Shown here piece by piece: positions 1-11,509 of a stretch of 11,509 nt of DNA; position 1 is the stretch's first letter; each line of letters opens with the position of its first letter. The DNA comes from a virus. Taxonomy: Duplodnaviria; Heunggongvirae; Uroviricota; Caudoviricetes. The position numbers and the translations under genes are program-made. The DNA is taken from the IMG/VR virus record IMGVR_UViG_2663763232_000007, positions 1 to 11,509 of that record; one strand, written 5' to 3'. The notes below the pieces were generated by a model. The model saw only the letters and a program-made list of their open reading frames with translations, had not been told where the DNA came from and did not search any database.

Positions 1-46
1 AACAATTTGAAAACAAGAACCTCGCTTAGGCCTGTGTCCATATTAC

Positions 47-556
47 GTGGGTAGGATCACTGATCCTACATTGCGAAGTCAGTTTTTTCAGGAATTAATG
101 AATGGTCTACGCGGTTATGAGACTGATGACGTAACAAAAGTCGAATTAAATCGCAGTACTGATGCTAGTGAGGATGAAGACAAGGAAGAAACTATTGATA
201 CCGGATTTGTTAAGAAAGCCGTCCTTAATGGTGAAGGGGTAAATAGTTCAGCTATATTTTCTCAACTACATGAGAAAGGTTATTATATCGGGCGTATTGC
301 ATGGTCTTCAAAGCCGACAAGTGGAATTGGAGACAGAATCAACGTCGAAGCATTTTTCAAAGACTCAGAAAAATGCTGTGACTTTGCCTATCAAATTAAA
401 GGTATAAACAATCAAAAAGAAGACGGTTTCAATGTAACCATTCGCGCGGCAACGGCACAAGAGAAAAAACATATTAGTGAATTAATTGAGTCCGCCGCTG
501 AAAATGCCTATAATATAATAATAGGATCAGAGGTGAACGAAGATGAAAAAGGTTAA
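47..556 (+). CDS. Hypothetical protein, acidic (169 aa from GTG at 47; 152 aa if the ATG at 98 is used); accessory cargo of unknown function
   Basis: Long ORF in AT-rich DNA. GTG at 47 has no obvious SD but overlaps a TAG at 52..54 that closes an upstream open frame; ATG at 98 is preceded by AGGA. No motif I recognise. Confidence 0.5.
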   Translation: MGRITDPTLRSQFFQELMNGLRGYETDDVTKVELNRSTDASEDEDKEETIDTGFVKKAVLNGEGVNSSAIFSQLHEKGYYIGRIAWSSKPTSGIGDRINVEAFFKDSEKCCDFAYQIKGINNQKEDGFNVTIRAATAQEKKHISELIESAAENAYNIIIGSEVNEDEKG

Positions 557-1226
557 ATGGCTTAAGTTAAACATACGGCTTGAGTTTGAAACAGCCGTTA
601 GACGTCTTTCTCTTGATTCTTTTACAGAGGATAAAGGGAAAGGGTTCATTTTTGATAAAATACGCCATGATTTTGCAAATGGTCGCTTTGTCGAGCGTAT
701 TGTTTATCATGATAAAATATTAAGCTTTGACGGAAGCGAAACTACCGTTGAAAGAATCGAATATCGCACCACAAATTTTAGCGTGGCTTTAGACTCTCTT
801 CCTGTAATGCAGATTACCAACCCACCCAGAACTTTAAAGCCTTTTTCGCAGGCTTTGGTAAAAAATCTTGGCTTAGGTGTTAGTTTGGAAGAAATTGACA
901 TAAACCCTATAGACTGGCTTAATGAAATATCTTCAAGTGTAAATATCAATTTAACACAACTTGATATTTCAAGGGTTAGAGTTTCTGATTACGCCACAGC
1001 TAAAATGCAAATAATTGGCAGCAATGATCTTAGGAAGTATTATAAAGAAGAATTAGAGGGTAAAAAAATAAGAATTGACAGGCTTGTTTGCTCTGTTAAT
1101 TCATTAGAATATTCCGGTAAGCTCAAGATCACCAATAGCGGCCTTGCTTATATTGATGTTAGAAATGAGAATGAGTTTACGAAAATCGTTTTTGATACGT
1201 TAAAAAAAGTCACCCTTCAATCATAG
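543..1226 (+). CDS. Hypothetical protein, 227 aa; accessory cargo of unknown function
   Basis: ATG at 543 preceded by GAGGTGA; overlaps the upstream ORF by 14 nt, suggesting translational coupling. AT-rich; no motif I recognise. Confidence 0.6.
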   Translation: MKKVKWLKLNIRLEFETAVRRLSLDSFTEDKGKGFIFDKIRHDFANGRFVERIVYHDKILSFDGSETTVERIEYRTTNFSVALDSLPVMQITNPPRTLKPFSQALVKNLGLGVSLEEIDINPIDWLNEISSSVNINLTQLDISRVRVSDYATAKMQIIGSNDLRKYYKEELEGKKIRIDRLVCSVNSLEYSGKLKITNSGLAYIDVRNENEFTKIVFDTLKKVTLQS

Positions 1227-1282
1227 ATGGCTTATAAGGAGTTACTTCACCTAACGCCTCGCCTTACTCGTTGTTCAACCTC

Positions 1283-1313
1283 GTAGGCGTCAGAATCAAG
1301 TTCTGACGCCTAC
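1283..1313. terminator. Perfect 13-bp stem / 5-nt loop hairpin between convergent transcription units; candidate bidirectional terminator
   Basis: gtaggcgtcagaa-tcaag-ttctgacgcctac read directly; lies between the + strand cargo operon (stop 1226) and the - strand DinI-like gene (stop 1322). Followed on + strand by aatgtttcttaat, only a weak T tract. Confidence 0.45.
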
Positions 1314-1321
1314 AATGTTTC

Positions 1322-1555
1322 TTAATGCAGCCAGCTATCGTCCTCCCACACCTTCTGCATAATTTTCATCACTTGTTTTCTTTCTTCGTCCAGTTGCAGT
1401 CCGGTCAGTTCCACACCGTTAGAGCTACCTTTGCGGATACGAATTACCGTTTTGGGATACAGGGGGCGCAGATTGCGGTAAAGCTCGGATTCAAGGGCGT
1501 CCAGGGTAGACTGGCTAATTTTCTGCTCTTTATCGATCATTATTTCAATGCGCAT
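1322..1555 (-). CDS. DinI-like protein (77 aa), equivalent to the DinI-like part of a 186 Tum-type SOS antirepressor module
   Basis: Translation from the internal ATG reads MRIEIMIDKEQ...VWEDDSWLH, matching the length and the MRIE start of E. coli DinI as I recall it. GAGGTG SD 8 nt upstream. The track ORF 1322..1627 extends upstream in a frame overlapping the preceding gene. Confidence 0.7.
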   Translation of the reverse strand: MRIEIMIDKEQKISQSTLDALESELYRNLRPLYPKTVIRIRKGSSNGVELTGLQLDEERKQVMKIMQKVWEDDSWLH

Positions 1556-1565
1556 AAAAGTCACC

Positions 1566-1754
1566 TCAGCTGATGACATCCATTGAGCGGTTGTATTCGT
1601 GGCTTCTGATTTTTGCCATGAGTTCATCAGTCAATTCAGAAACCCACTGCAGAGCCAGCCCCTTCTCTTCATCACTACACTCACTAGCCGCTACAAGCTT
1701 AAGAAAAAAATCAATGCGCTGGAGCTTCAAAGACTCCAAAAAATAGTCCTGCAT
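1566..1754 (-). CDS. Small protein (62 aa), first gene of the LexA-controlled module; possibly the N-terminal partner of a split Tum-like antirepressor
   Basis: ATG start (MQDYFLESLK...) preceded by AGGAGG at 5 nt; stop lies 10 nt upstream of the DinI-like ATG. The track ORF 1566..1856 extends upstream across the promoter region. Confidence 0.5.
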   Translation of the reverse strand: MQDYFLESLKLQRIDFFLKLVAASECSDEEKGLALQWVSELTDELMAKIRSHEYNRSMDVIS

Positions 1755-1795
1755 TTTTCCTCCTATGACACCACAAGCAATACTGTACACATAAC

Positions 1796-1815
1796 CACTG
1801 TTTATATTTACAGTA
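1796..1815 (-). promoter_or_regulatory. LexA operator (SOS box) overlapping a candidate -10 of the promoter for the 1754..1322 module
   Basis: cactgtttatatttacagta = CTGT-N8-ACAG with an AT-rich spacer, close to the consensus taCTGTatatatatACAGta; about 45 nt upstream of the ATG at 1754. On the - strand, TTTACA and TATACT flank it as possible -35/-10. Confidence 0.6.
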
Positions 1816-1907
1816 TATAATAATCTTACTGATGTAAAACGTTTTTTTACGTTCATCAGCCTGATATGCCTGGTATTATTAAGAGCACGAATTGTTAACC
1901 CGCGTAA

Positions 1908-4322
1908 TTAATACAGATCCCGCCACTTATCATCTTCCTGCAAACGCTGGTTCCGATAGAAGATACGCAGGCCTGCTCCTGACGGAATACTGCCGCCGCG
2001 AAGGAGTAAATCGACCTCTTTCTCGCTGCCATCAAATCCTCTGGACTTCAGTTCATAGACGAGCTGCTGTCGTTGATGGTCTGTAATTCGCTGTTTGTAG
2101 TCTCTACGCCGTTTCGGTTTCACCAGGCGTAACCTTGCAGCCAGTTCCCGGCGTTCTTTTTTGTTCATACTGTGCAGGTAATCGTGCAACTCCTTGTCAT
2201 CCATACGGGTGATATCCGTTCTGGTATCCCCATCAGCTGATTTGTCTTTCCCTTGTTGGTACAAATTTTCAGCAAGGGGACAGTTATTGCCACGAGTCCA
2301 AGGGGCGCAAGCGCCCTGGTCGGCTGCCGCCTCCTGAACGTCAACGGCTTTACGAACCATTTTCCACTTCACTGCATGAGTGCAGATCTTGCCCTCTGCA
2401 ATGGGTGACCAGATGCCATAAATACGAATGCCGTGATCGCCATAGGCGGTCGGCTCTTCGTTGATTTCATAAGCGGTTCTGATGAGGTGATATTTACGGG
2501 GAACCAGTACGCCGCCCTGCTTCATGATGTAGGTGGCAAAACAACCAGCATCAGCAGCAGCCAGGATGGCATCAAGGCGCGGGTTATCCAGTACCGGCGC
2601 ACCTGCTTTTTTGTCCCCCTGTTGCCTTGCCGCCTGACCAGCCAGCAATCGCAGTTCACGGTAAGCCTGACGCCCCGGAATGCCAAAGAAGCGGAATTGC
2701 TGAACACGATGCAAAGACGCCCAGGCATTCACGTATTCAGCGTTATCACGCAGAGATTTACCCGTTTCCTTGCTGATCTCGCCAGCCAGACCACGCCCGT
2801 CAATGTTCTTACTGATGTATTTCGCTATGTAGCTTGTCGGCGTTCCTTTGCGCGGGTTAATCAGCTCAGACTTAAAGCGCGGCCCCGTGTTATTGCCCAG
2901 CTCCTCGCGGTCTTCACGGATAGCAAACTTACGCAACAATGCAGTAATGGCTCGGCGGTCTTTTTTGCGCATGAAACACAACAGGTGCCAGTGAACTGTG
3001 CCGTCGTGATGCGGCTCAGCCACCCGCACGCCATACCAGCGCAACCCGGCTTTGTGCATCGCCTTACGAAATGCAGCAAACATACCGACCAGATAATCGC
3101 TGCTTTGTCTTACCGTCGCATTTGTCCAGGTCGGGTTGGGCCTGCCGTTATTTAGCGTGGAATGGAAACGTGACGGACAGGTGATGGTGTAGAAAACGGC
3201 GCAGTCACCGCGCATTTCCGCGATAAGCTCCAGACCTTTAACACAGGCCATCATCTCATTGCGGCGATGCGCAGGGTTGCTGCTGCTGGCGTTTACCACA
3301 TCCTCCATGTCCAGCGTGTCGCCGTCTTCGTTCACCAGTTCATGAGAACGGAAAAACTCCAGCGACTTACGGCGCTGCTCACGTTTATGCAACACGGCTT
3401 CATAGCTGACATAGGGAGATGCTTTTTTGCTGACAAGGCAGACAGCACGCAACTGCTCTTCCCGCCATTCGCAACGCATCTTCCATAATTTCCGATACCA
3501 CCAGTCGGCGCACAACATACGCGCCAGCGAACCCGGAATGAGTTCATAGGGCACGGGTTTACGGCGGTTCCTTTTCCGACGGAGTTGCTCAAACGCAGGC
3601 GGGATGACATCCAGACGCAGGGTTTCTGCTGCCACCTTTTCCCATGTCTTGCGGATTTCTTCTGGCTTAACGTCATCGGTGGCATACAAATCGCCACAAG
3701 CTGCATCAAGGCACATGCTCATATGCGCAGCAACAAGGGTGGACAGGCGTTTCACCTGATCCTGACTCATTTCAGGCAGAATCAGCAGGCCGTCCAGCCC
3801 TTCATGGCTTGCCATAAAGCGAAAAGAAGTGGATAGCTGACTGTCGCGTACATGCTCCAGCCGTTCCAGACATGGCTTAATCGTCTCACGCAAATAGCGG
3901 GAATAAGCCTTTGGCCTGCCAAGGCTGCTGAAGTATTCAATACGTTGCATCAGCGGCTTGCTGATATGGGAGGGCTGGGCGCTGACGTCTGCCAGAATGA
4001 CCATGTCCGGGTTAAAACGCTGCTGCTCATGCGCCAACTTTGCCCGGCTAATGAGCTTATCCTGCTCCATTTCGCGCTGGACAGGATCACGGGATTCATT
4101 AAAGAAATAACGCTCCCAAACCTGATCACTCAGTGCCTCGCGGCGCAGTTGTTCCTGCTCGTTATCGGCAGCGTACAGAGTGATCAGGTTTGAAAGCGCA
4201 GAAACCGGCGCAACTTCCGCCGGGTCCAGATAAGGGTTAATGGCCTTTTTCGGGCTGTTCCATGAGAACGATGCGGCAGCTTCGTTAAAGCCGCAGCAGT
4301 TGTTCATATCGGCATGACTCAT
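1908..4322 (-). CDS. A: Rolling-circle replication initiation endonuclease, P2 gpA / 186 A family (804 aa)
   Basis: Contains VHWHLL (HUH-type metal-binding motif) and YIAKYISK (paired catalytic tyrosines three residues apart), as in P2 gpA-family initiators. ATG start overlaps the dam stop as ATGA. Confidence 0.9.
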
Positions 4323-5176
4323 GCACGTACTCCGTACACGGCAGAACTATCCACGCCACGCGAATAATCAAATCCCACCCAGCAGCGCGGCCCAGAAACA
4401 GCAATGATTTCTGTTGCTGATTTACCCTCGCCAGCTGCCACACCGATGCTGCGTTTTGCCTTGATGTAGTGGTGAGTAAAATTGCGATACAGCGAACGGA
4501 TCAGGGATGTGTCACTGTTAGAAACAATGACCGGATGTCCTTCTGATGACCGATGTTCAAGAACAGATGCCAGGTGATACTGGTCATCTTCAGTGAAGCC
4601 GTCAGTGTGATAGCCGGAAAACGTACCGTCATACGGCGGATCGCAATACACCACATCCCCCGCCTTCAACATCGCCAGCGTTTCATCAAAGCTGGCGCAG
4701 ATAAACGTTGCTCGCTGGGCCTTTTCTGCAAATGCGCGAATTTCTTTTTCAGGGAAATACGGATTTTTATAATTACCGTAGGGAATGTTGAAATGCCCGC
4801 TCTTGTTATAGCGACATAAACCACGGTAACCGTGACGATTGAGATACAGGAAATATACCGCTTTCATGAAATCAGTAATTTCAGTTGAGTAATTAAACTC
4901 CTGCCTTATGTTGTAATAAGCCACCTCCCTGTTTGCGATCTCAAATAAAACTCTGGCGCGAGATATAAACGATTCACAATCAGCGGCAACCTTTTTATAG
5001 AGGTTGATTAAATCAGGATTAATATCCGCAACCAGATAGCTGGGATAATCCGTCTCCATCATCACAGCACAGGAACCCGCGAAAGGTTCAACCAGTCGCG
5101 GGCCAGCAGGAAGATGTTTTTTCAGTTCGGACATTATGGCAGTTTTATTTCCCGCCCATTTCAGGATGGTGCTCAT
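4319..5176 (-). CDS. dam: DNA adenine methyltransferase, Dam/D12 class (N6-adenine)
   Basis: From the internal ATG the protein reads [11 protein letters not shown]..., with [10 protein letters not shown] (SAM-binding motif I-like) and VVYCDPPY (motif IV DPPY). The ATG overlaps the upstream stop as ATGA. The track ORF starts 20 codons earlier at a non-ATG codon. Confidence 0.85.
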
Positions 5177-5400
5177 ACAGCACCTCCGTTGTAATGTTTG
5201 CCTTTCAGCTCTGCGATTTCCTGACAGGTAATGCAAAGCTGCACACCCGGAATGGCACGGCGGCGTGCTGGCGGAATTGGCGCTTCACACTCAATGCAAA
5301 GTACGCGTGACACGCCCGGTGATTTGGCACGGGCTGCACGGATATGGCGCTGGCGTTCTTCTTCAACGCGCTGCTGTACGAGATCCATTGCATCAGCCAT
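5173..5400 (-). CDS. TraR/DksA-family C4 zinc-finger protein (75 aa)
   Basis: CIEC-(17 aa)-CITC spacing typical of the DksA/TraR zinc finger; AGGAG SD 8 nt before the ATG; start overlaps the upstream stop (TAATG). Confidence 0.75.
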   Translation of the reverse strand: MADAMDLVQQRVEEERQRHIRAARAKSPGVSRVLCIECEAPIPPARRRAIPGVQLCITCQEIAELKGKHYNGGAV

Positions 5401-5633
5401 TAGTGGATCTCCTGCGCTTCGTTCTGGATTGCTTCAGCAGTCACGCGCAGCAGTTCTGCCGCTTCCACGTGGTTTAGCTGGCGGGATGAGATATGACACG
5501 CCAGGCTATCAAGGCGAGCAGCCATTGCTTCAGCCCTTGCCCGGCGTTCTTCCAGACGAGCCTCTGTCAGTAAAATATTAAGCCCTGCGTCATCCGGTCC
5601 GGTTTTAGTCGTGAGGGTTTCAATATTACGCAT
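5400..5633 (-). CDS. Hypothetical early-operon protein (77 aa from the ATG; track ORF begins 2 codons earlier at TTG)
   Basis: ATG preceded by AGGAGA at 8 nt; sits in the early operon between the cII-side small ORFs and the zinc-finger gene; Arg/Ala/Glu-rich. No motif recognised. Confidence 0.5.
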   Translation of the reverse strand: MRNIETLTTKTGPDDAGLNILLTEARLEERRARAEAMAARLDSLACHISSRQLNHVEAAELLRVTAEAIQNEAQEIH

Positions 5634-5700
5634 AATCAATTCTCCTGAATTTAGATAAAGGGATGCCCGGCGGGTTTACGCCATTAATTTCATTAGTTGG

Positions 5701-6042
5701 TTAATTCGGCATGGTTAGCCGTCTGGGAAATAAGCTCACCACTGCACGAAAATGATTCATTGCTTTAATCAGCTCCCGCTTTTCGTCAGTGGTCAGCTCA
5801 TTAATGCTGATGCTATGACGTTCAGCTGGAATTTTTGCCATAAAGAATATGGCAGCCAGTGCCCGTTTATTTTGTTCATTATTGATATCCCGTGGATCAC
5901 GCATATCTTTAATAAACCGCTCAAGCTCTGACTCAATATTCAAACCAAAAACTTTCGCCCTTAACTCCGCAATATGATTAAGTCCATTCAGGCGTTCACC
6001 GGGTCTTAATGGAACAGTCGCCGCAGCGCCTTCAATAGCCAT
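5701..6042 (-). CDS. Hypothetical early-operon protein (113 aa)
   Basis: ATG preceded by GGGGGAA; position corresponds to the fil/dhr region of the 186 early operon, but I cannot match the sequence to either. Confidence 0.55.
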   Translation of the reverse strand: MAIEGAAATVPLRPGERLNGLNHIAELRAKVFGLNIESELERFIKDMRDPRDINNEQNKRALAAIFFMAKIPAERHSISINELTTDEKRELIKAMNHFRAVVSLFPRRLTMPN

Positions 6043-6206
6043 TTGTTCCCCCGTTTTTTCGTAGATAGTTCTGCCAGCAATTCATCTTGTGAACGGCACG
6101 GATGCCAGCGTTTACCATCCTCACCCATGATCCAGCCGTGACCGTAGTGCATTGCCGGACTTTGTTTTACCAGCAGCGATGCAAATGATGGTTCTTTCGT
6201 CAGCAT
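6006..6206 (-). CDS. Hypothetical small protein (66 aa from the ATG), immediately downstream of cII
   Basis: ATG preceded by GAGGTG that overlaps the cII stop; its 3' end overlaps the next ORF by 37 nt in another frame, so one of the two starts may be wrong. Confidence 0.4.
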   Translation of the reverse strand: MLTKEPSFASLLVKQSPAMHYGHGWIMGEDGKRWHPCRSQDELLAELSTKKRGNKWLLKALRRLFH

Positions 6207-6213
6207 AAGCACC

Positions 6214-6723
6214 TCACAGCAAACCGAATGAAGCACCGAGGCCAGTTACAGTATCAACTGCACTTGCCATCACAGGATTAACCTGTAAACGGGCCTGCAA
6301 TGAAACAGCAGCTAACGCCATCAGTCGTGTAACAGAGTTAATGCTGCTGATAGCATCACGACGACCTGCACTGGTTTTTACATCGCCAGATACCGCACCT
6401 GCAGCAACACGCCCGATCTCTGCGGTTGCACTCATGACGTAATGTGGCAGTTTCTCTTTTGCCACCTCATTAATCGGTACACATGGCAGGCAGTGAATCT
6501 GTGCCAGAAAACCGTCTACCAGCGTTGAATCTTCCGTCAGATCGGTAAGTAGCCAGATATCTGGCGCATTGAGCTGATGCGGTTGATCTGGGTTGAGTTT
6601 GTTTCGCAGAGTCTGGACATTCATTCCTGCACGTTCTGCCAGCTTCGCCATATTGTGGCGTAGTGCAAAAGCTCTACAGGCTTCATCAAAATGCGGATGT
6701 TTGGAAATCTTGTAATCAAACAT
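6214..6723 (-). CDS. cII: CII-type transcriptional activator of lysogeny (186 CII family, 169 aa)
   Basis: Same length as 186 CII as I recall it, same position after apl, and an N-terminal HTH-like segment ([19 protein letters not shown]). ATG preceded by AAGGGGG. Confidence 0.8.
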
Positions 6724-6755
6724 GCTGCCCCCTTAGAAAGTTCTCATAATTGAAC

Positions 6756-7004
6756 TTAGCCACCAACGATGACATTAAAATTGAAATTGGATTGGCCCAT
6801 GTTTTTCCTGACTTGTTCCTTTTTGTACTCAAGGTAACGTATACATACTCTGTCTTTCGGTTTTTCCTTTTTTTCCAAGAATTTAGCGAGCTTACCATTA
6901 TGAATCATTTGATATACCGAACCGCGAGAGCGGCCTTCCCATTCCGCGAACTCTGCAGGTGTCGCCATCACTTTTGGTACACGAATTGAAATGTCGTTGC
7001 TCAT
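6756..7004 (-). CDS. apl: Apl/Cox-family excisionase and lytic-promoter repressor (82 aa)
   Basis: First gene of the - strand early operon, divergent from cI; small basic protein with an HTH-like segment (ATPAEFAEWEGRSRGSVYQMIHNGKL); ATG start. Confidence 0.7.
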   Translation of the reverse strand: MSNDISIRVPKVMATPAEFAEWEGRSRGSVYQMIHNGKLAKFLEKKEKPKDRVCIRYLEYKKEQVRKNMGQSNFNFNVIVGG

Positions 7005-7123
7005 AGTGCAGTATCTCTCGATTAAGGTTTTGTTTATGTCGTTTTATCTTGTTTTATTAGATTCAATATTTGATACATCGAGATACTACGATCCAATATT
7101 TGATACGTCAATAGGATTAAGAA
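7005..7123. promoter_or_regulatory. Lysis/lysogeny switch region between apl and cI, carrying the early lytic and repressor promoters and operator repeats
   Basis: 119-bp AT-rich spacer between divergent apl and cI. Candidate lytic promoter on the - strand: -35 TTGACG (complement of 7106..7111), 17-nt spacer, -10 TAGTAT (complement of 7083..7088). I could not pin the + strand repressor promoter. Confidence 0.5.
7064..7107. repeat. Two direct copies of CAATATTTGATAC spaced 30 bp apart; candidate Apl or CI operator sites
   Basis: Copies at 7064..7076 and 7094..7106 read directly; the 30-bp spacing is about three helical turns; the second copy abuts the candidate -35. Confidence 0.45.
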
Positions 7124-7756
7124 ATGATACAGGTAAAAGCTGGCGAGAATACAGGGGGAAGAGAGGCTATCCATAGACTAATGGCAGCCTATGATTTCAA
7201 GTCCAGACAGCAACTTTGCGATCACTTAGGCGCATCAAAAAGCACTATGGCAAACAGATACTTAAGAGATAGCTTTCCCGCAGAGTGGGTGATTCAGTGC
7301 GCCTTGGAAACAGGAGTTTCTTTACTGTGGCTAACCACCGGACAAGGCGAGCCAGGTTCAAAAATTGACCCTAAAAAAAATATCAATTCTGTGAACTCCA
7401 GCAGGGTTAAACCTCTTTCTGAGCTTGTATCTCCTGAAATTGACAAGGCAACTCTCAACGGTGGTTTATTGGTCGATGCTGGAAAAGCAATCATTGATAG
7501 CAGCATACTCCCCTCAGACTCAAGCAACCTGCTGCTGGTGAGTACTTCTGGTGATTCTTATTTAATAGATCGCAACCAAACACCACCAGTAAATGGTACG
7601 TGGTTAGTGGACATCGACGGGATAAAAAGCATTGTAAAATTGACACGACTCCCGGGAAACAGATTAGTAGTGCATCAGGATGATTCATCGTTTGAGTGCG
7701 AACTGGATGACATTGAGGTAATAGGTCGCGCACTGAAAATTATTAAGAGCCTTTGA
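7124..7756 (+). CDS. cI: CI-type immunity repressor (210 aa from ATG 7124; 191 aa if the ATG at 7181 is used)
   Basis: N-terminal HTH ending in LLWLTTGQGEP, plus a C-terminal domain; divergent from apl; stop is 1 nt before the int ATG (TGAtATG). AGGA lies 7 nt before ATG 7124. 186 CI is about 192 aa by my recollection, so the start is uncertain. Confidence 0.75.
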   Translation: MIQVKAGENTGGREAIHRLMAAYDFKSRQQLCDHLGASKSTMANRYLRDSFPAEWVIQCALETGVSLLWLTTGQGEPGSKIDPKKNINSVNSSRVKPLSELVSPEIDKATLNGGLLVDAGKAIIDSSILPSDSSNLLLVSTSGDSYLIDRNQTPPVNGTWLVDIDGIKSIVKLTRLPGNRLVVHQDDSSFECELDDIEVIGRALKIIKSL

Positions 7757-7757
7757 T

Positions 7758-8783
7758 ATGACCATCAGAAAACAGCCGAACGGAAAGTGGTTATGTGAAT
7801 GCTACCCAAACGGAAGAGATGGCAAACGCGTACGCAAACAATTTGCGACGAAAGGCGAAGCCATTGCGTTTGAGAATTTCACCATGGATGAGGTAAACAA
7901 GAAACCTTGGCTGGGAGAAAAGGAAGATCGGCGACAACTGTCAGAAGTGATTGAGCAATGGTATTCCCTGTACGGTCAGACACTCGCTGACCCTAAGCGA
8001 TTAATGGCTAAGTTAAAAATCATTTGTAATGGACTTGGCGATCCCATCGCTTCTGAATTGACAGCAGGTGATTTCACAAAGTACCGGGAAGCCAGATTAA
8101 AAGGTGAGGTCAAAAACGAAGATGGCGTGCTCATGTCACCGGTTAAGCCCAGAACGGTGAACCTTGAACAGCGTAACCTATCCTCAGTTTTTGGCACACT
8201 GAAAAAGCTGGGGCATTGGTCTGCACCCAACCCCCTCGCCGGTCTGCCAACTTTCAAAATTGCAGAAGGTGAACTGGCGTTCCTTGCTGCTGATGAAATC
8301 AAACGCCTGCTTGACGCATGTGCTGAATCTCAAAGTCCCAGTCTGCTAATGATTGCCAAGATTTGCCTGGCTACCGGGGCAAGATGGAGCGAAGCCGAAA
8401 ACCTGCAAGGTAACCAGATATCAAAGTATCGAATTACCTATACCAAAACAAAAGGAAAGAAAAACCGAACTGTTCCTATTTCTCAGGAACTGTATGAAGA
8501 ATTACCCAAAAACAGAGGAAAGTTATTCACACCATGCCGAAAGGCTTTTGAGCGTGCGGTAAAACGAGCTGGAATTGAACTACCTGAAGGTCAATGTACC
8601 CACGTTCTGCGCCACACTTTCGCCAGTCACTTTATGATGAACGGCGGAAACATTTTGGTATTGAGGGATATTTTAGGACACGCTGATATTAAAATGACCA
8701 TGATTTATGCCCATTTTGCACCGGATCATCTGGAAGATGCCGTTACCAAAAATCCACTTCATAACCTCAACTGGCATCGCTAA
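7758..8783 (+). CDS. int: Tyrosine integrase, P2/186 family (341 aa)
   Basis: C-terminal catalytic region HVLRHTFASHF...LGHADIKMTMIYAHF (H-x-x-R and catalytic Tyr); size and position after cI match P2/186 Int; reads into the att site. Confidence 0.9.
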   Translation: MTIRKQPNGKWLCECYPNGRDGKRVRKQFATKGEAIAFENFTMDEVNKKPWLGEKEDRRQLSEVIEQWYSLYGQTLADPKRLMAKLKIICNGLGDPIASELTAGDFTKYREARLKGEVKNEDGVLMSPVKPRTVNLEQRNLSSVFGTLKKLGHWSAPNPLAGLPTFKIAEGELAFLAADEIKRLLDACAESQSPSLLMIAKICLATGARWSEAENLQGNQISKYRITYTKTKGKKNRTVPISQELYEELPKNRGKLFTPCRKAFERAVKRAGIELPEGQCTHVLRHTFASHFMMNGGNILVLRDILGHADIKMTMIYAHFAPDHLEDAVTKNPLHNLNWHR

Positions 8784-8788
8784 TAAAT

Positions 8789-8836
8789 GGCGGCACTTTG
8801 GCGGCAGAGCACTAAAAACAAGTAAAACAAGCAAAC
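8789..8836. repeat. Short direct repeats in the att arm (GGCGGCA x2; AAAACAAG x2), possible Int arm-type or host-factor sites
   Basis: GGCGGCA at 8789..8795 and 8800..8806; AAAACAAG at 8815..8822 and 8824..8831; AT-rich context between the int stop and the att core. Confidence 0.3.
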
Positions 8837-8900
8837 ACAGATTAACACTAACATCATGATTTAAAATGAAAAAATATGATTTCGTTAGTGTAAAAATGGT

Positions 8901-8944
8901 ATGTAGGAATTTCGGACGCGGGTTCAACTCCCGCCAGCCCACCA
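8901..8944 (+). ncRNA. ssrA: 3' terminal 44 nt of ssrA (tmRNA), T-arm and acceptor 3' strand ending in CCA; att core shared by the prophage and the downstream island. Not a complete tmRNA gene
   Basis: atgtaggaatttcggacgcgggttcaactcccgccagcccacca matches the 3' end of E. coli ssrA as I recall it (one position differs). Upstream sequence is the int 3' end and AT-rich arm, not the tmRNA body. Confidence 0.8.
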
Positions 8945-8991
8945 AAATTCTCCATCGGTGATTACCAGAGTCATCCGATGAAGTCCTAAGA

Positions 8992-9023
8992 GCCCGCACG
9001 GCGCAAGCCCTGCGGGCTTTTTT
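8992..9023 (+). terminator. Rho-independent terminator (ssrA terminator)
   Basis: gcccgca-cggcgcaagccc-tgcgggc followed by TTTTTT, 48 nt after the CCA end. Confidence 0.7.
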
Positions 9024-9078
9024 GTGCCCTCACTTTGTCCCGCGAAGTCCGAAGAGAACTAATTAAATCCGAACCTTT

Positions 9079-9128
9079 TAGGCCCATTGATAGGCCCAAC
9101 GAAAAGCTCTATTGTTTTCGTTGGGCCT
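9079..9128 (+). promoter_or_regulatory. Direct repeat TAGGCCCA x2 overlapping a perfect 14-bp stem / 9-nt loop hairpin in the intA upstream region
   Basis: TAGGCCCA at 9079..9086 and 9091..9098; stem aggcccaacgaaaa (9092..9105) pairs with ttttcgttgggcct (9115..9128); ends 20 nt before the intA ATG; no T tract follows. Confidence 0.35.
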
Positions 9129-9147
9129 AAACGCATGGAGACTCCCC

Positions 9148-10389
9148 ATGGCAAGAAAAACCAAGCCGTTAACCGATACGGAAATCAAAGCCGCCAAACC
9201 TAAAGATGCCGATTACCAGCTATATGATGGTGACGGGCTTACTCTGTTAATCAAGTCCAGTGGTAGTAAGCTCTGGCAATTCCGTTACTATCGACCTCTG
9301 ACAAAACAGCGAACCAAGCAAAGCTTCGGAGCCTACCCTGCTGTCTCCCTTTCTGATGCGCGTAAACTCAGAGCTGAATCTCGAGTTTTATTGGCGAAAG
9401 ACATTGATCCTCAGGAACATCAGAAAGAGCAGGTTAGAAATTCTCAAGAGGCTAAAACCAACACTTTCCTGTTAGTTGCCGAGCGTTGGTGGAATGTGAA
9501 GAAAGCCAGCGTAACAGAGGACTATGCCGATGATATCTGGCGCTCGCTTGAGAGAGATGTTTTCCCAGCAATCGGTGATATCAGTGTCACCGAGATTAAG
9601 GCTCATACTCTGGTTAAAGCAGTGCAGCCGGTTCAGGCCAGAGGTGCATTAGAGACTGTTCGCCGCCTTTGTCAGCGTATTAACGAAGTCATGATTTATG
9701 CTCAGAACACAGGCCTAATTGATGCTGTTCCCAGCGTTAACATCGGGAAAGCATTCGAGAAACCGCAGAAGAAAAACATGCCTAGTATCCGCCCGGATCA
9801 ACTTCCACAATTAATGCAGACTATGCGCACGGCAAGTATCAGCCTGTCCACACGATGCCTGTTCATGTGGCAACTTCTAACCATCACCCGCCCTGCCGAA
9901 GCTGCTGAGGCTCGATGGGATGAGATCGATTTCAATGCTAGCGAATGGAAAATTCCTGCAGCTCGAATGAAGATGAACCGGGACCATACGGTTCCACTAT
10001 CTGATGGGGCTCTTGCTATTCTGGAAATGATGAAGCCTCTCAGTGGTGGCCGAGAATTTATCTTTCCTAGCCGTATCAAGCCCAACCAACCAATGAATAG
10101 CCAAACAGTGAATGCAGCACTCAAGCGTGCTGGCTTAGGAGGTGTACTTGTTTCACACGGCTTGCGTTCTATCGCCAGTACGGCACTCAATGAGGAAGGA
10201 TTTCCACCTGATGTCATTGAAGCAGCGCTTGCTCATGTAGACAAAAATGAGGTGCGTCGCGCTTATAACCGCAGTGATTATCTTGAGCAACGTCGTCCGA
10301 TGATGCAATGGTGGGCTGATTTTGTAAAAGCAGCAGATAGCGGCAGTATCGTTAATAGTGGGGTTAGGGGAATACGGCTTGTGGGATGA
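9148..10389 (+). CDS. intA: Tyrosine integrase of the CP4-57 (IntA/SlpA, ssrA-targeting) type, 413 aa
   Basis: From ATG 9148 (GGAGA SD) the protein begins MARKTKPLTDTEIKAAKPKDADYQLYDGDGLTLLIK, matching CP4-57 IntA as I recall it; C-terminal HGLRS...RRAYNRSDY catalytic region. The track ORF starts 12 codons earlier at TTG. Confidence 0.85.
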   Translation: MARKTKPLTDTEIKAAKPKDADYQLYDGDGLTLLIKSSGSKLWQFRYYRPLTKQRTKQSFGAYPAVSLSDARKLRAESRVLLAKDIDPQEHQKEQVRNSQEAKTNTFLLVAERWWNVKKASVTEDYADDIWRSLERDVFPAIGDISVTEIKAHTLVKAVQPVQARGALETVRRLCQRINEVMIYAQNTGLIDAVPSVNIGKAFEKPQKKNMPSIRPDQLPQLMQTMRTASISLSTRCLFMWQLLTITRPAEAAEARWDEIDFNASEWKIPAARMKMNRDHTVPLSDGALAILEMMKPLSGGREFIFPSRIKPNQPMNSQTVNAALKRAGLGGVLVSHGLRSIASTALNEEGFPPDVIEAALAHVDKNEVRRAYNRSDYLEQRRPMMQWWADFVKAADSGSIVNSGVRGIRLVG

Positions 10390-10447
10390 ATCCTTTATCA
10401 GCACCCATAATGGGTGCTGATAATTCAACTATTAATAATACGGGCTT

Positions 10448-11326
10448 TTATCCTGTGACTTTCTTTTTTCTAGCAACTGTATTATCTAAAGCCAATTTGA
10501 TACTTTCAATATTTCTTGACCAGTTTTTAATAATGGTATCTTCCAAAGCATCTTGGCTCATTGTTGCGATACGATATTTTTTACTTTCATTATTAATGTC
10601 AAAATTTGACTCTTTAATAAAGTCCCACAAAGGATCAATGAGAGCATTTACCGCAGCTGCTTTACTTTTCCACCCACCTTCAGGAACAGATTCATTGATC
10701 AAATAAACAAGTTTATCTTGAATTACTCGATATACTTCCGCTTTACTGCTCCCACCTTGTTTTCCGGCTTTAGCTCTAACATGGGATAATTTTTTTTGAG
10801 CACATACAGAAACATGAAACCATGACATACCAATACATCTATCAAATAATTCAGAAGATTTAATGAATGCTTTAATAGCAACACACTCATTCTCTGACAT
10901 AACTGATTTTCCCCATTGATAAGACATCGAGGCAAAAAATAGATGTGATTTAAACACATCATTAATTAAAAAAGGATCCTGAATAAGATGAGAAAATGTT
11001 CCCCTGAAAATACGTGACTTTAACTCTTTCCAGCATTCCTGAACTGGATCATATAATTCAGCATATTCCTCTATTAATTGACCCACTCTGTCACCAGTAC
11101 AATATTTATACTCTTCATGAGATGGAGCACTATACAAAACCACACGTGTTCCTACCTTATCAGAATTCCAGAACTGATCTCGCATTTCGCTTAGTTCCTT
11201 CAGTATCGCAGGATAACTTTCGCTGAGCATATCAATGTATATGTCCCAATCACATTCGACCATCTGCCCAGAAAGACAAACCGATTTTTGACTAATTTCT
11301 TCGCAAAACTCAATCGCTGTCAACAT
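10448..11326 (-). CDS. Hypothetical protein (292 aa from the ATG), AT-rich orphan cargo gene next to intA
   Basis: Long ORF in roughly one-third G+C DNA, convergent with intA; ATG at 11326 (track ORF begins 6 codons earlier at TTG). No motif I recognise. Confidence 0.55.
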   Translation of the reverse strand: MLTAIEFCEEISQKSVCLSGQMVECDWDIYIDMLSESYPAILKELSEMRDQFWNSDKVGTRVVLYSAPSHEEYKYCTGDRVGQLIEEYAELYDPVQECWKELKSRIFRGTFSHLIQDPFLINDVFKSHLFFASMSYQWGKSVMSENECVAIKAFIKSSELFDRCIGMSWFHVSVCAQKKLSHVRAKAGKQGGSSKAEVYRVIQDKLVYLINESVPEGGWKSKAAAVNALIDPLWDFIKESNFDINNESKKYRIATMSQDALEDTIIKNWSRNIESIKLALDNTVARKKKVTG

Positions 11327-11509
11327 AAAAACACCAAATATCAATTAGTTAAGTGTTGTAAAAAATGTATTTTTGGTACGCGGATTTTTTGCATTAATGC
11401 TTGCCGCTAATCTTTCTACAACCAAAATGAACTAACGAGAGGCAATCAAGTGATCTTGACCCTCCATCTCCGAACAGCTTTTGTATCTTAAGTTAACGAT
11501 GTCCGCTGC

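What the first reader, a model, noticed from the sequence alone, without database searches (positions are those of the whole stretch)
8784..9150. Two integrases of different families flank one ssrA 3' fragment: tandem islands at ssrA
A P2-type int reads into a 44-nt ssrA 3' end (the att core), which is followed by its terminator and then an IntA-type integrase on the same strand. Only the 3' end of ssrA is present here, so the intact tmRNA gene must lie beyond the far end of the prophage. The core would then be attR of the 186-like prophage and attL of the CP4-57-like island together. Shared att sites raise the question of whether the two elements excise independently or together, and which integrase recognises which junction.
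Basis: partly seen in the sequence, partly recalled or inferred. Interest (0 to 1): 0.55.

Follow-up and report, generated by a model that had tools for sequence, protein, structure and literature searches.

The report
Prophage and island sharing one tmRNA-gene stub
A Fels-2/186-like prophage has inserted into the E. coli tmRNA gene just upstream of a resident CP4-57-like island, an ordinary and well-documented tandem arrangement, but the leftover gene stub between them carries the one-base deletion (ΔT357) known to inactivate tmRNA.

Summary
Window 7758-8783 encodes a Fels-2/SopEΦ-type (P2-family) integrase. Positions 8901-8944 are the last 45 nt of E. coli ssrA minus one base. Positions 8945-9147 are 100% identical to the ssrA trailer, terminator and intA leader of E. 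coli B379. Positions 9148-10389 encode IntA, 97% identical to K-12 CP4-57 IntA.

The tandem-island interpretation is supported. In E. coli APEC-O117H42, which has the identical phage integrase, the intact ssrA lies 31 kb away at the ogr end of the prophage. The K-12 island carries its own short distal repeat (psaA). Tandem arrays at ssrA are already catalogued (Islander; Williams 2003). Each element has its own arm-site candidates, so independent excision is expected. Only the phage's excisionase is visible in the window.

CP4-57 excision leaves this same allele in K-12, and it abolishes trans-translation. All free-phage attP copies examined keep the T. Strains NCTC9088 and TUM1887 look like a without-phage/with-phage pair. 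Together these place the deletion on the host side and the phage crossover 5' of it. Prophage loss should therefore inactivate tmRNA; this step is inferred, not shown.

Verdict: real, a new member of a known kind, of modest interest.

The parts
6756..7004 (-). Apl/Cox-like excisionase and repressor of the 186-like prophage (its directionality factor)
   Evidence: PHROG phrog_6912 'excisionase' E 8e-33 and phrog_575 'Cox-like excisionase and repressor' E 3e-24. It is divergent from cI, as in 186-type phages.
7124..7756 (+). 186-type CI repressor, first gene of the cI-int operon
   Evidence: Pfam Phage_CI_repr plus Phage_CI_C. Annotated 'phage repressor protein CI' at the same position in related prophages.
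7758..8783 (+). Tyrosine integrase of the Fels-2/SopEΦ subgroup of P2-family phages, reading toward the att core
   Evidence: Pfam Int_N plus Phage_integrase. 95.9% identical to Yersinia phage MLG42 Int and 93.5% to Cartapus Int. 100% identical to the integrase of the APEC-O117H42 and 23CRST047 prophages. Catalytic motifs ARWSE, LRHTF, GHADI and MIYAH are intact.
8784..8900 (+). P arm of the phage attR. It holds two TGGCGGCA direct repeats (8788-8795 and 8799-8806), candidate arm-type Int binding sites.
   Evidence: Repeats found. The same motif pair follows int or the moron in Cartapus, TUM1887 and SopEΦ. It also lies in the P' arm beside the intact ssrA in two lysogens. Binding is inferred, not tested.
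8901..8946 (+). att core of the phage (46 bp here, 47 bp in free-phage attP). Positions 8901-8944 are the displaced ssrA 3' end, lacking T357 between 8938 and 8939.
   Evidence: Alignments; attP sequences; exact coordinates.
8927..8945 (+). Segment shared with the distal repeat (psaA) of K-12 CP4-57: the core region used by IntA, that is, attL of the island
   Evidence: K-12 attL reads ACTCCCGCCAGCTCCACCAA and attR reads ACTCC-GCCAGC-CCACCAA. The CP4-57 feature is annotated as starting inside the ssrA 3' end.
8947..9023 (+). ssrA precursor trailer (hairpin about 8953-8980) and intrinsic terminator (stem 8988-9021, T-run 9018-9023). Here it would end the cI-int transcript.
   Evidence: Fold at -50.9 kcal/mol, z -4.8. 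Terminator scan and inverted repeat I2. 100% identical to B379. The weak Rfam IsrM hit covers only this hairpin.
9079..9129 (+). Three TAGGCCCA motifs (two direct, one inverted) overlapping the promoter-like site 9087-9115 before intA. Candidate IntA arm or operator sites of the island's P' arm.
   Evidence: 3 matches, and 0 of 200 shuffles reach 3. 15-nt perfect inverted repeat I1. Promoter-like site. In the TUM1887/NCTC9088 intA lineage all three read TAGGCACC, so they co-vary.
9148..10389 (+). IntA, the P4-type integrase of a CP4-57-like island
   Evidence: Pfam Arm-DNA-bind_3, Phage_int_M and Phage_integrase. 400/413 identical to K-12 IntA. Annotated intA in B379.
10448..11344 (-). First cargo gene of the island (hypothetical; sits at the position of yfjH)
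   Evidence: phrog_19089 E 1e-169, residues 7-298. 99.9% DNA identity to the gene after intA in B379. Only 69% DNA identity to the K-12 yfjH region.
11451..11509 (+). End of an IS3-family insertion sequence that interrupts the island where alpA should begin
   Evidence: 100% matches at 138 places in 77 E. coli genomes, annotated as IS3 family transposase. Homology to B379 stops at 11450, one base before the B379 alpA start.

Best explanation
This is the junction of a tandem array at the tmRNA gene. A Fels-2/SopEΦ-like (186-type regulation, P2-family) temperate phage recombined its 47-bp attP core with the 3' end of ssrA in an E. coli that already carried a CP4-57-like island directly after ssrA.

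Integration leaves the working gene at the far (ogr) end of the prophage, completed by the phage-borne 3' end and the phage's own terminator. The host-side 3' end is pushed to the int end. There it sits as a 44-nt stub, still attached to the old ssrA trailer, terminator and intA.

The stub is therefore attR of the phage (P arm 8784-8900 plus core). It is also attL of the island (core 8927-8945 plus P' arm up to intA). The cores overlap but the arms do not. Each element should therefore be cut out only by its own integrase, and a composite excision is not expected. The phage's helper is the Apl/Cox-like protein at 6756-7004. The island would need AlpA, which is not visible because an IS3-family end sits where alpA should start.

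The stub carries ΔT357, which removes the G·U pair needed for alanine charging of tmRNA. The deletion lies on the host-derived side of the phage crossover. Prophage excision would therefore rebuild ssrA with ΔT357, switching off trans-translation and shifting ribosome rescue to ArfA. The same outcome has been shown experimentally for CP4-57 excision in K-12.

Shown here: the sequence anatomy, the homologies and the comparative layouts. Inferred: the order of events, the arm-site function, the crossover position and the consequence of excision.
For: Anatomy and homology.

Intact ssrA at the far end of the same prophage type: APEC-O117H42 and TUM1887. Both have ...CAGCTCCACCAAA followed by a phage terminator and TGGCGGCA/TGGCGACA motifs.

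Phage attP equals the window's left arm plus core: Cartapus and SopEΦ. Every free-phage or prophage-record core in the phage collection matches 46/47, meaning it keeps the T.

Island att: K-12 CP4-57 feature boundaries and psaA.

ΔT on the host side: NCTC9088 has a single 362-nt ssrA with ΔT followed by intA::IS3. TUM1887 has the identical ΔT-spacer-intA::IS3 sequence, but with a Fels-2-like prophage and a 363-nt ssrA upstream. The two states can be linked by phage integration or excision only if the crossover is 5' of T357.

The identical integrase sits next to a stub with T or ΔT, and with either the intA flank or the ypjA flank.

Literature: CP4-57 excision deletes T357, and ΔU357 tmRNA is inactive and synthetically lethal with ΔarfA (PMC10107115 sections 1 and 2.1, Table 1; PMC3105296 discussion). 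Tandem arrays, each member with its own fragment and integrase, are a standard category, and ssrA is the most enriched target (PMC4383910).
Against: The far end of the prophage and the far end of the island are outside the window, so the intact ssrA and the distal repeats are known only by analogy. No complete E. coli genome in the collection has this exact combination; the best junction match is 97.6% and carries the T.

The crossover point of this integrase has not been mapped. My placement rests on one natural strain pair and on the absence of ΔT in known attP sites. NCTC9088 is one assembly, and a one-base indel could be an error there or in the window.

How a ΔT core came to sit next to the intA-side flank is not explained. 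IntA recombination with a crossover 5' of T357, as the K-12 data imply, should always place the island's own T there.

The IS at 11451 may mean the island can no longer excise at all.
Confidence: 0.85

Rival explanations
1. The missing T is a sequencing or assembly error. On this view the stub is an ordinary perfect 45-nt copy, as in APEC-O117H42, and prophage excision would be harmless to ssrA.
For: It is a single-base indel. The closest full-length junction in the collection (APEC-O117H42) has the T. Only 36 of 5426 complete genomes show the ΔT form in a full T-arm context.
Against: The same deletion at the same position occurs in independent assemblies. In E. coli these are TUM1887, 23CRST047 and 23CRST049, NCTC9088 and SK0832. 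It also occurs in species representatives of other genera such as Enterobacter, Citrobacter, Leclercia and Providencia. It is the experimentally documented K-12 psaA/post-excision allele. The rest of 8901-11450 differs from B379 at only 2 of about 2550 positions.
Confidence: 0.08
2. The ΔT was brought by the phage's own attP, with the crossover 3' of T357. Integration and excision would then never touch T357 of the working gene, and the stub's defect would have no consequence.
For: Everything left of the crossover in attR is phage-derived. The crossover point is unmapped. The window, 23CRST047 and 23CRST049 share a 100% identical left arm and all have ΔT.
Against: None of the distinct attP or prophage-end cores in the phage collection carries ΔT; all match 46/47 (sequences). 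Lysogens with the identical integrase and left arm (LS4, O177:H21, APEC-O117H42) have the T. ΔT exists on the host side without any phage (K-12 psaA, NCTC9088, SK0832). The NCTC9088/TUM1887 pair cannot be interconverted with a crossover 3' of T357.
Confidence: 0.1
3. The order of events was the reverse. The phage was resident first and the IntA island later integrated into the displaced stub (a secondary attB) rather than into the working ssrA.
For: The stub contains the whole IntA core region (8927-8945). Phage lysogens without an island and with a ΔT stub next to ypjA exist (23CRST047). They would be the required intermediate.
Against: K-12 experiments imply an IntA crossover 5' of T357 (PMC10107115). 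With that crossover, an incoming island would install its own T in attL, not ΔT. The spacer and island left end are 99.9% identical to strains where the island sits directly after the intact ssrA. That is the common state: 691 genomes cover at least 80% of the core-plus-trailer query. The junction sequence alone cannot fully exclude this order.
Confidence: 0.12
4. The two elements behave as one composite mobile unit that excises and transfers together, using the outermost att sites.
For: They are adjacent, co-oriented and share a core. P4-type elements are satellites of P2-type helpers (established knowledge). Physical linkage could therefore favour co-mobilisation.
Against: The outer junctions lack the matching arms. 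The intact-ssrA junction carries the phage P' arm with TGGCGRCA motifs and no TAGGCCCA motif within the 95 nt read. The island's distal repeat in K-12 is a roughly 19-nt imperfect copy with no phage P arm. Related genomes carry the phage alone or the island alone.
Confidence: 0.03

Closest known systems
Fels-2 and SopEΦ prophages integrated in ssrA of Salmonella enterica (Peduoviridae, Felsduovirus)
   Same: The integrase subgroup is the same; the SopEΦ record's Int is annotated as similar to 186 Int. The 47-bp core ATGTAGG...CCACCAAA is the same, as is the TGGCGGCA motif pair in the P arm. The order cI-int-att is that of the 186-type relative Cartapus. LT2 also has a P4-integrase element (Stm27X) listed at ssrA together with Fels-2 (PMC10107115 Table 1, citing Williams 2003).
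   Different: The host is E. coli. The displaced stub carries ΔT357, whereas the Fels-2, SopEΦ and SpaX remnants are listed with the T intact (PMC10107115 Table 1). There is no moron between int and att here, unlike SopEΦ (orfY), Cartapus (RES protein) and TUM1887 (dCTP deaminase).
Cryptic prophage CP4-57 of E. coli K-12 (IntA/AlpA, integrated at ssrA)
   Same: IntA is 97% identical. The ssrA trailer, terminator and intA leader are the same, and so is the core region. The ΔT357 allele is identical to K-12 psaA and to the post-excision ssrA (PMC10107115).
   Different: Here ΔT sits on the attL (intA) side rather than at the distal attR. attL adjoins a stub, not the working gene, so island excision would not affect tmRNA. 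The first cargo gene is only 69% identical in DNA to the K-12 yfjH region. An IS3-family end sits where alpA should start.
Prophage-excision switches of tmRNA (CP4-57 in K-12, CP4So in Shewanella oneidensis, the P2-family phage of S. putrefaciens)
   Same: The displaced fragment lacks the U of the acceptor-stem G·U pair, so excision is expected to yield inactive tmRNA (PMC10107115 Table 1; PMC5148205; PMC8682789). The S. putrefaciens case also involves a P2-type integrase.
   Different: No excision data exist for this element. The ΔT stub here is the middle fragment of a tandem array in E. coli and is followed by a second integrase.
Tandem island arrays at tRNA and tmRNA genes (Islander/TIGER catalogue)
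   Same: Each array member has its own tyrosine integrase and its own tDNA fragment in the orientation of the gene. ssrA is the most enriched target, and 125 tandems were listed in 2014 (PMC4383910).
   Different: Nothing in kind. This is one more instance, with integrases of two subfamilies.

Membership tests
Tandem array of integrative elements at a tDNA (Islander definition) | A displaced 3' fragment of the target gene marks the end of the element | tested here: met
   8901-8944 matches 44 of the 45 last nt of ssrA.
Tandem array of integrative elements at a tDNA (Islander definition) | Each member has its own tyrosine integrase gene | tested here: met
   7758-8783 and 9148-10389 both have the Pfam Phage_integrase domain with different N-terminal domains.
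Tandem array of integrative elements at a tDNA (Islander definition) | An intact target gene, in the same orientation, at the other end of the first element | not testable with these tools
   It lies outside the window; no tmRNA gene is found in 1-8900. The feature is met in analogous genomes: APEC-O117H42 with the identical integrase and TUM1887.
Tandem array of integrative elements at a tDNA (Islander definition) | A second fragment at the distal end of the second element | not testable with these tools
   The window ends 2.4 kb into the island. K-12 CP4-57 has such a fragment, psaA.
Fels-2/SopEΦ-type P2-family prophage | Integrase of that subgroup | tested here: met
   93.5-95.9% amino-acid identity to Cartapus and MLG42 Int, against about 37-41% to other P2-family integrases such as P22H1 and R18C.
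Fels-2/SopEΦ-type P2-family prophage | attP-type left arm and 47-bp ssrA core directly downstream of int | tested here: met
   46 of 47 core positions are present. The left arm aligns with Cartapus, SopEΦ, RE2010, SEN8 and Fels-2.
Fels-2/SopEΦ-type P2-family prophage | 186-type early region (CI, Apl/Cox, CII, replication protein A) | tested here: met
   Pfam and PHROG hits. 94.5% DNA identity over 7.5 kb to Klebsiella P2-like prophages and 97% to E. coli prophages.
CP4-57-like (P4-type integrase) island | IntA-type integrase immediately after the ssrA trailer and terminator | tested here: met
   97% identity to K-12 IntA. The spacer is identical to B379.
CP4-57-like (P4-type integrase) island | AlpA excisionase/activator near intA | tested here: inconclusive
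   Homology to B379 stops one base before its alpA start, and an IS3-family end follows to the end of the window.
Prophage-excision tmRNA switch | The displaced fragment lacks T357 (the G·U pair of the acceptor stem) | tested here: met
   CAGC-CCACCA at 8935-8944 against CAGCTCCACCA in the gene. It is the same allele as listed in PMC10107115 Table 1.
Prophage-excision tmRNA switch | The crossover lies 5' of T357, so that excision transfers the defect into ssrA | tested here: inconclusive
   Supported indirectly: all known attP copies keep the T, and the NCTC9088/TUM1887 pair fits. It has not been mapped.
Prophage-excision tmRNA switch | The element actually excises | not testable with these tools
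   int and the excisionase are intact in sequence. No experimental or read data are available.

The most novel reading that the evidence does not exclude
In this strain the only functional 3' end of the tmRNA gene may be phage DNA. On this reading the host-side 3' end is the dead ΔT357 allele, and the prophage either repaired a tmRNA-null host when it integrated or now holds tmRNA function hostage. Its loss would flip the cell to ArfA-dependent ribosome rescue. Comparative data hint that ΔT357 is a circulating host-side allele. It appears as the sole ssrA in natural isolates, and it is handed between att junctions at this locus by successive integrations and excisions of unrelated elements.
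Probability: 0.5. Interest if true: 0.45.

Novelty: new member of a known kind. Interest (0 to 1): 0.3.

Why it matters
ssrA is the busiest integration site in enterobacteria. Tandem arrays there show how unrelated elements share one short target.

The practical point here is the dead stub. If the phage leaves, the cell is predicted to lose trans-translation, which changes proteome, motility and stress tolerance in K-12. That would stabilise the lysogen and make prophage excision a physiological switch.

It is also a warning for annotation. Some complete E. coli genomes carry ΔT357 in their only annotated ssrA.

Tried and rejected
1. Rfam IsrM hit at 8967-9023 (31 bits against 376 gathering). 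It covers only the ssrA terminator hairpin, with 274 model positions skipped, so it is not IsrM. The mir-2235 hit at 4112-4199 is chance (E 0.09).

2. I looked for the source genome among 5426 complete E. coli genomes. None has this exact junction. The best is APEC-O117H42 at 97.6%, with the T.

3. The idea that IntA recombination alone could move ΔT next to the intA flank. I worked through integration, excision and tandem scenarios with a crossover 5' of T357. All of them restore the T at attL, so the origin of the ΔT-plus-intA-flank junction stays unexplained. A de novo deletion in a non-selected stub, or T357 lying within the overlap region, remain possible.

4. I tried to read Williams 2003 (PMC142792), Wang 2009 (PMC2754048) and Pelludat 2003 (PMC181011). 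None is held. Their content is cited only through PMC10107115, PMC3105296 and PMC4383910, or marked as my own knowledge.

5. ORFs inside the finding (8673-8999 on the minus strand, 8707-8859 on the plus strand). They overlap int, the att arm, the core and the terminator, and were treated as spurious without a homology search.

6. The metagenome scan was not used, because the E. coli and species-representative collections gave enough.
Full report
**What is in the sequence**

The window holds no complete tRNA or tmRNA gene (ARAGORN). Rfam finds only a sub-threshold tmRNA match at 8875-8944 (25.5 bits against a gathering score of 47, E 3.7e-07).

Alignment with the intact ssrA-intA region of E. 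coli B379 shows that homology begins exactly at 8901 and runs through the CCA end at 8944. This stretch has 44 nt where the gene has 45. The T of CAGCTCCACCA is absent between 8938 and 8939.

From 8945 to the IntA start codon the window is identical to B379. The whole of 8901-11450 is 99.92% identical. The trailer folds into a hairpin followed by a strong terminator at about 8988-9023 (fold z -4.8).

Upstream, ORF 7758-8783 carries Pfam Int_N plus Phage_integrase. Downstream, ORF 9148-10389 carries Arm-DNA-bind_3, Phage_int_M and Phage_integrase. My first try at 9150 was out of frame; the ATG is at 9148-9150.

**What the two elements are**

The left element is a 186-type, P2-family prophage. 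It has a CI repressor, a CII (CP76) protein, an Apl/Cox-like excisionase, a DksA-like protein, Dam, replication protein A and a DinI-like protein.

Its DNA is 94.5% identical over 7.5 kb to Klebsiella P2-like prophage records. It also matches Cartapus, RE2010, SEN8 and MLG42. The integrase is 93.5-95.9% identical to those of Cartapus (Peduoviridae, Elveevirus) and MLG42, and about 37-41% identical to other P2-family integrases. It is 100% identical to the integrase in the prophages of E. coli APEC-O117H42 and 23CRST047, and its catalytic motifs are intact.

The right element begins with IntA, which is 400/413 identical to IntA of K-12 CP4-57. A hypothetical gene follows, shared with B379.

**Is the stub an att site of both elements?**

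For the phage:
- Free-phage attP in Cartapus reads ...GTAAAAATGGT-ATGTAGGAATTTCGGACGCGGGTTCAACTCCCGCCAGCTCCACCAAA-TAAATCAAGG....
- The SopEΦ record ends exactly with the same 47 bp.
- The window has this left arm and core (8901-8946).
- In APEC-O117H42 the layout is smpB, ssrA (363 nt), about 31 kb of prophage running from ogr through tail, head and rep genes to cI-int, then the stub, then an IntA-type integrase.
- At the intact ssrA the core is followed by the phage right arm with its own terminator. TUM1887 shows the same.

It cannot be checked inside the window.

For the island:
- K-12 annotation starts CP4-57 inside the ssrA 3' end and ends it at the 14-nt pseudogene psaA.
- The two ends read ACTCCCGCCAGCTCCACCAA at attL and ACTCC-GCCAGC-CCACCAA at attR.
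- The corresponding window segment is 8927-8945.

**Who cuts what**

Two TGGCGGCA repeats lie directly after the int stop codon (8788-8795 and 8799-8806). The same motif pair is found in the P arm of Cartapus, TUM1887 and SopEΦ. It also occurs in the P' arm beside the intact ssrA.

Three TAGGCCCA motifs lie at 9079, 9091 and, inverted, 9122-9129; 0 of 200 shuffles reach three. They overlap the only promoter-like site before intA. In the divergent intA lineage of TUM1887 and NCTC9088 all three read TAGGCACC.

I take these as candidate arm-type sites for the two integrases. This is an inference from the λ/P2/P4 model of arm-binding tyrosine integrases, which is established knowledge. Binding was not tested.

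The outer junctions do not carry the partner arms. The phage has its own directionality factor, the Apl/Cox-like protein at 6756-7004. The island would use AlpA, which is not visible in the window. Independent excision is therefore expected and composite excision is not. Consistent with this, genomes exist with the phage alone (23CRST047, LS4, O177:H21) and with the island alone (B379, K-12).

**The missed detail: ΔT357**

The missing base is T357 of ssrA. CP4-57 excision in K-12 produces exactly this deletion. It removes the acceptor-stem G·U pair. ΔU357 tmRNA gives no tagging and is synthetically lethal with ΔarfA, and ArfA takes over ribosome rescue (PMC10107115 sections 1 and 2.1, Table 1; also PMC3105296 and PMC8682789).

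Where did the window's ΔT come from? Four lines of evidence bear on this:
- All phage-collection cores match 46 of 47 positions, so they keep the T.
- Lysogens with the identical integrase and an identical left arm have either T (LS4, O177:H21, APEC-O117H42) or ΔT (23CRST047/049). The right flank can be either the ypjA side or the intA side.
- ΔT occurs on the host side without this phage. It is in K-12 psaA. It is the sole 362-nt ssrA in NCTC9088, which is followed by intA::IS3, and in SK0832.
- TUM1887 has the same ΔT-spacer-intA::IS3 sequence as NCTC9088, but with a defective Fels-2-like prophage and a 363-nt ssrA upstream.

The NCTC9088 and TUM1887 states can be linked by phage integration or excision only if the phage crossover is 5' of T357. 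I therefore infer that excision of the window's prophage would rebuild ssrA as ΔT357. My confidence in this step is moderate, about 0.6. It rests on one strain pair and on negative evidence from the attP sites.

**How common is it?**

All 5426 complete E. coli genomes have the core. About 280 extra copies exist (5709 places). Of the genomes, 691 have the core followed by the intA-type trailer.

Only 2 cover at least 80% of a query spanning int, stub and intA. Others have related phages with a moron between int and att next to intA.

A query that can only seed on the ΔT form finds 36 genomes. Most are unannotated stubs, and four lie in the annotated ssrA.

Among species representatives, ΔT stubs with a full T-arm occur in 11 genomes. 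One is Enterobacter sp. kpr-6, which has the same architecture: a Fels-2-type Int at 94% identity, a ΔT stub, and IntA at 90% identity. In Citrobacter and Providencia the stub directly precedes IntA homologues.

**Comparison with the known**

Tandem arrays in which each member has its own integrase and fragment are a standard category. ssrA is the most enriched target (PMC4383910). P2-type (Fels-2, SopEΦ, SpaX) and P4-type (CP4-57, Stm27X, Stit11X) elements at ssrA, and their remnants with or without the T, are tabulated in PMC10107115, citing Williams 2003, Pelludat 2003 and Liu 2019.

The case in the window is a further instance. Its particular features are an E. coli host, a P2-type prophage whose stub is ΔT357, and a stub that is the middle fragment of an array.

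**What remains unexplained**

I cannot explain how ΔT came to lie next to the intA-side flank. With an IntA crossover 5' of T357, island integration should always restore the T. A deletion arising in a non-selected stub would do it. So would T357 lying within the overlap region, which would leave heteroduplex products. I could not discriminate between these.

**Verdict**

The kind is already known, and the ΔT357 stub adds a testable physiological consequence. Interest is 0.3.

Noticed in passing
window 11451-11509: The last 59 nt are the end of an IS3-family insertion sequence. It matches at 100% in 138 places across 77 E. coli genomes. Homology to the B379 island stops one base before that strain's alpA start. 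The island's excision activator may therefore be displaced or disrupted, which could lock the island in place.
   Followed up: partly
window 9079-9129: Three TAGGCCCA motifs (two direct, one inverted, within a perfect 15-nt inverted repeat) overlap the promoter-like site before intA. In the divergent intA lineage of TUM1887 and NCTC9088 all three are TAGGCACC. This co-variation suggests binding sites for IntA or a regulator.
   Followed up: partly
window 8788-8806: Two TGGCGGCA repeats 11 bp apart lie directly after the int stop codon. They are conserved in Cartapus, SopEΦ and TUM1887, and again in the opposite arm next to the intact ssrA. They are candidate arm-type sites of the phage integrase.
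   Followed up: partly
L008 (NCTC9088) 3679-4040; L025 (SK0832) 3171-3532; L015 (ECDA1023) about 5530-5891 in the core-forward orientation used: Some natural E. coli isolates carry ΔT357 in what appears to be their only ssrA, annotated as a normal 362-nt tmRNA gene. If real, these strains lack trans-translation and rely on ArfA. In total 36 of 5426 complete genomes have a ΔT357 copy in a full T-arm context.
   Followed up: partly
L007 (TUM1887) 18068-19801; L004 (Cartapus) 8581-9786; L006 (LR-25) 5016-5999: Related Fels-2-like phages carry different cargo genes between int and attP: an anti-phage dCTP deaminase in TUM1887, a RES-domain protein in Cartapus and a hypothetical protein in LR-25. 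The window's phage has none there.
   Followed up: no
window 47-1226: Two ORFs of unknown function (phrog_6531 and phrog_5850, no Pfam hit) lie upstream of the DinI-like gene, in the region where related prophages carry variable cargo. They are probably morons.
   Followed up: no
L021 (Enterobacter sp. kpr-6), 4859-8000 in the core-forward orientation used: The same three-part architecture occurs in another genus: a Fels-2-type integrase (94% aa identity), a ΔT357 stub, and an IntA-type integrase (90% aa identity). The combination therefore recurs beyond E. coli.
   Followed up: partly
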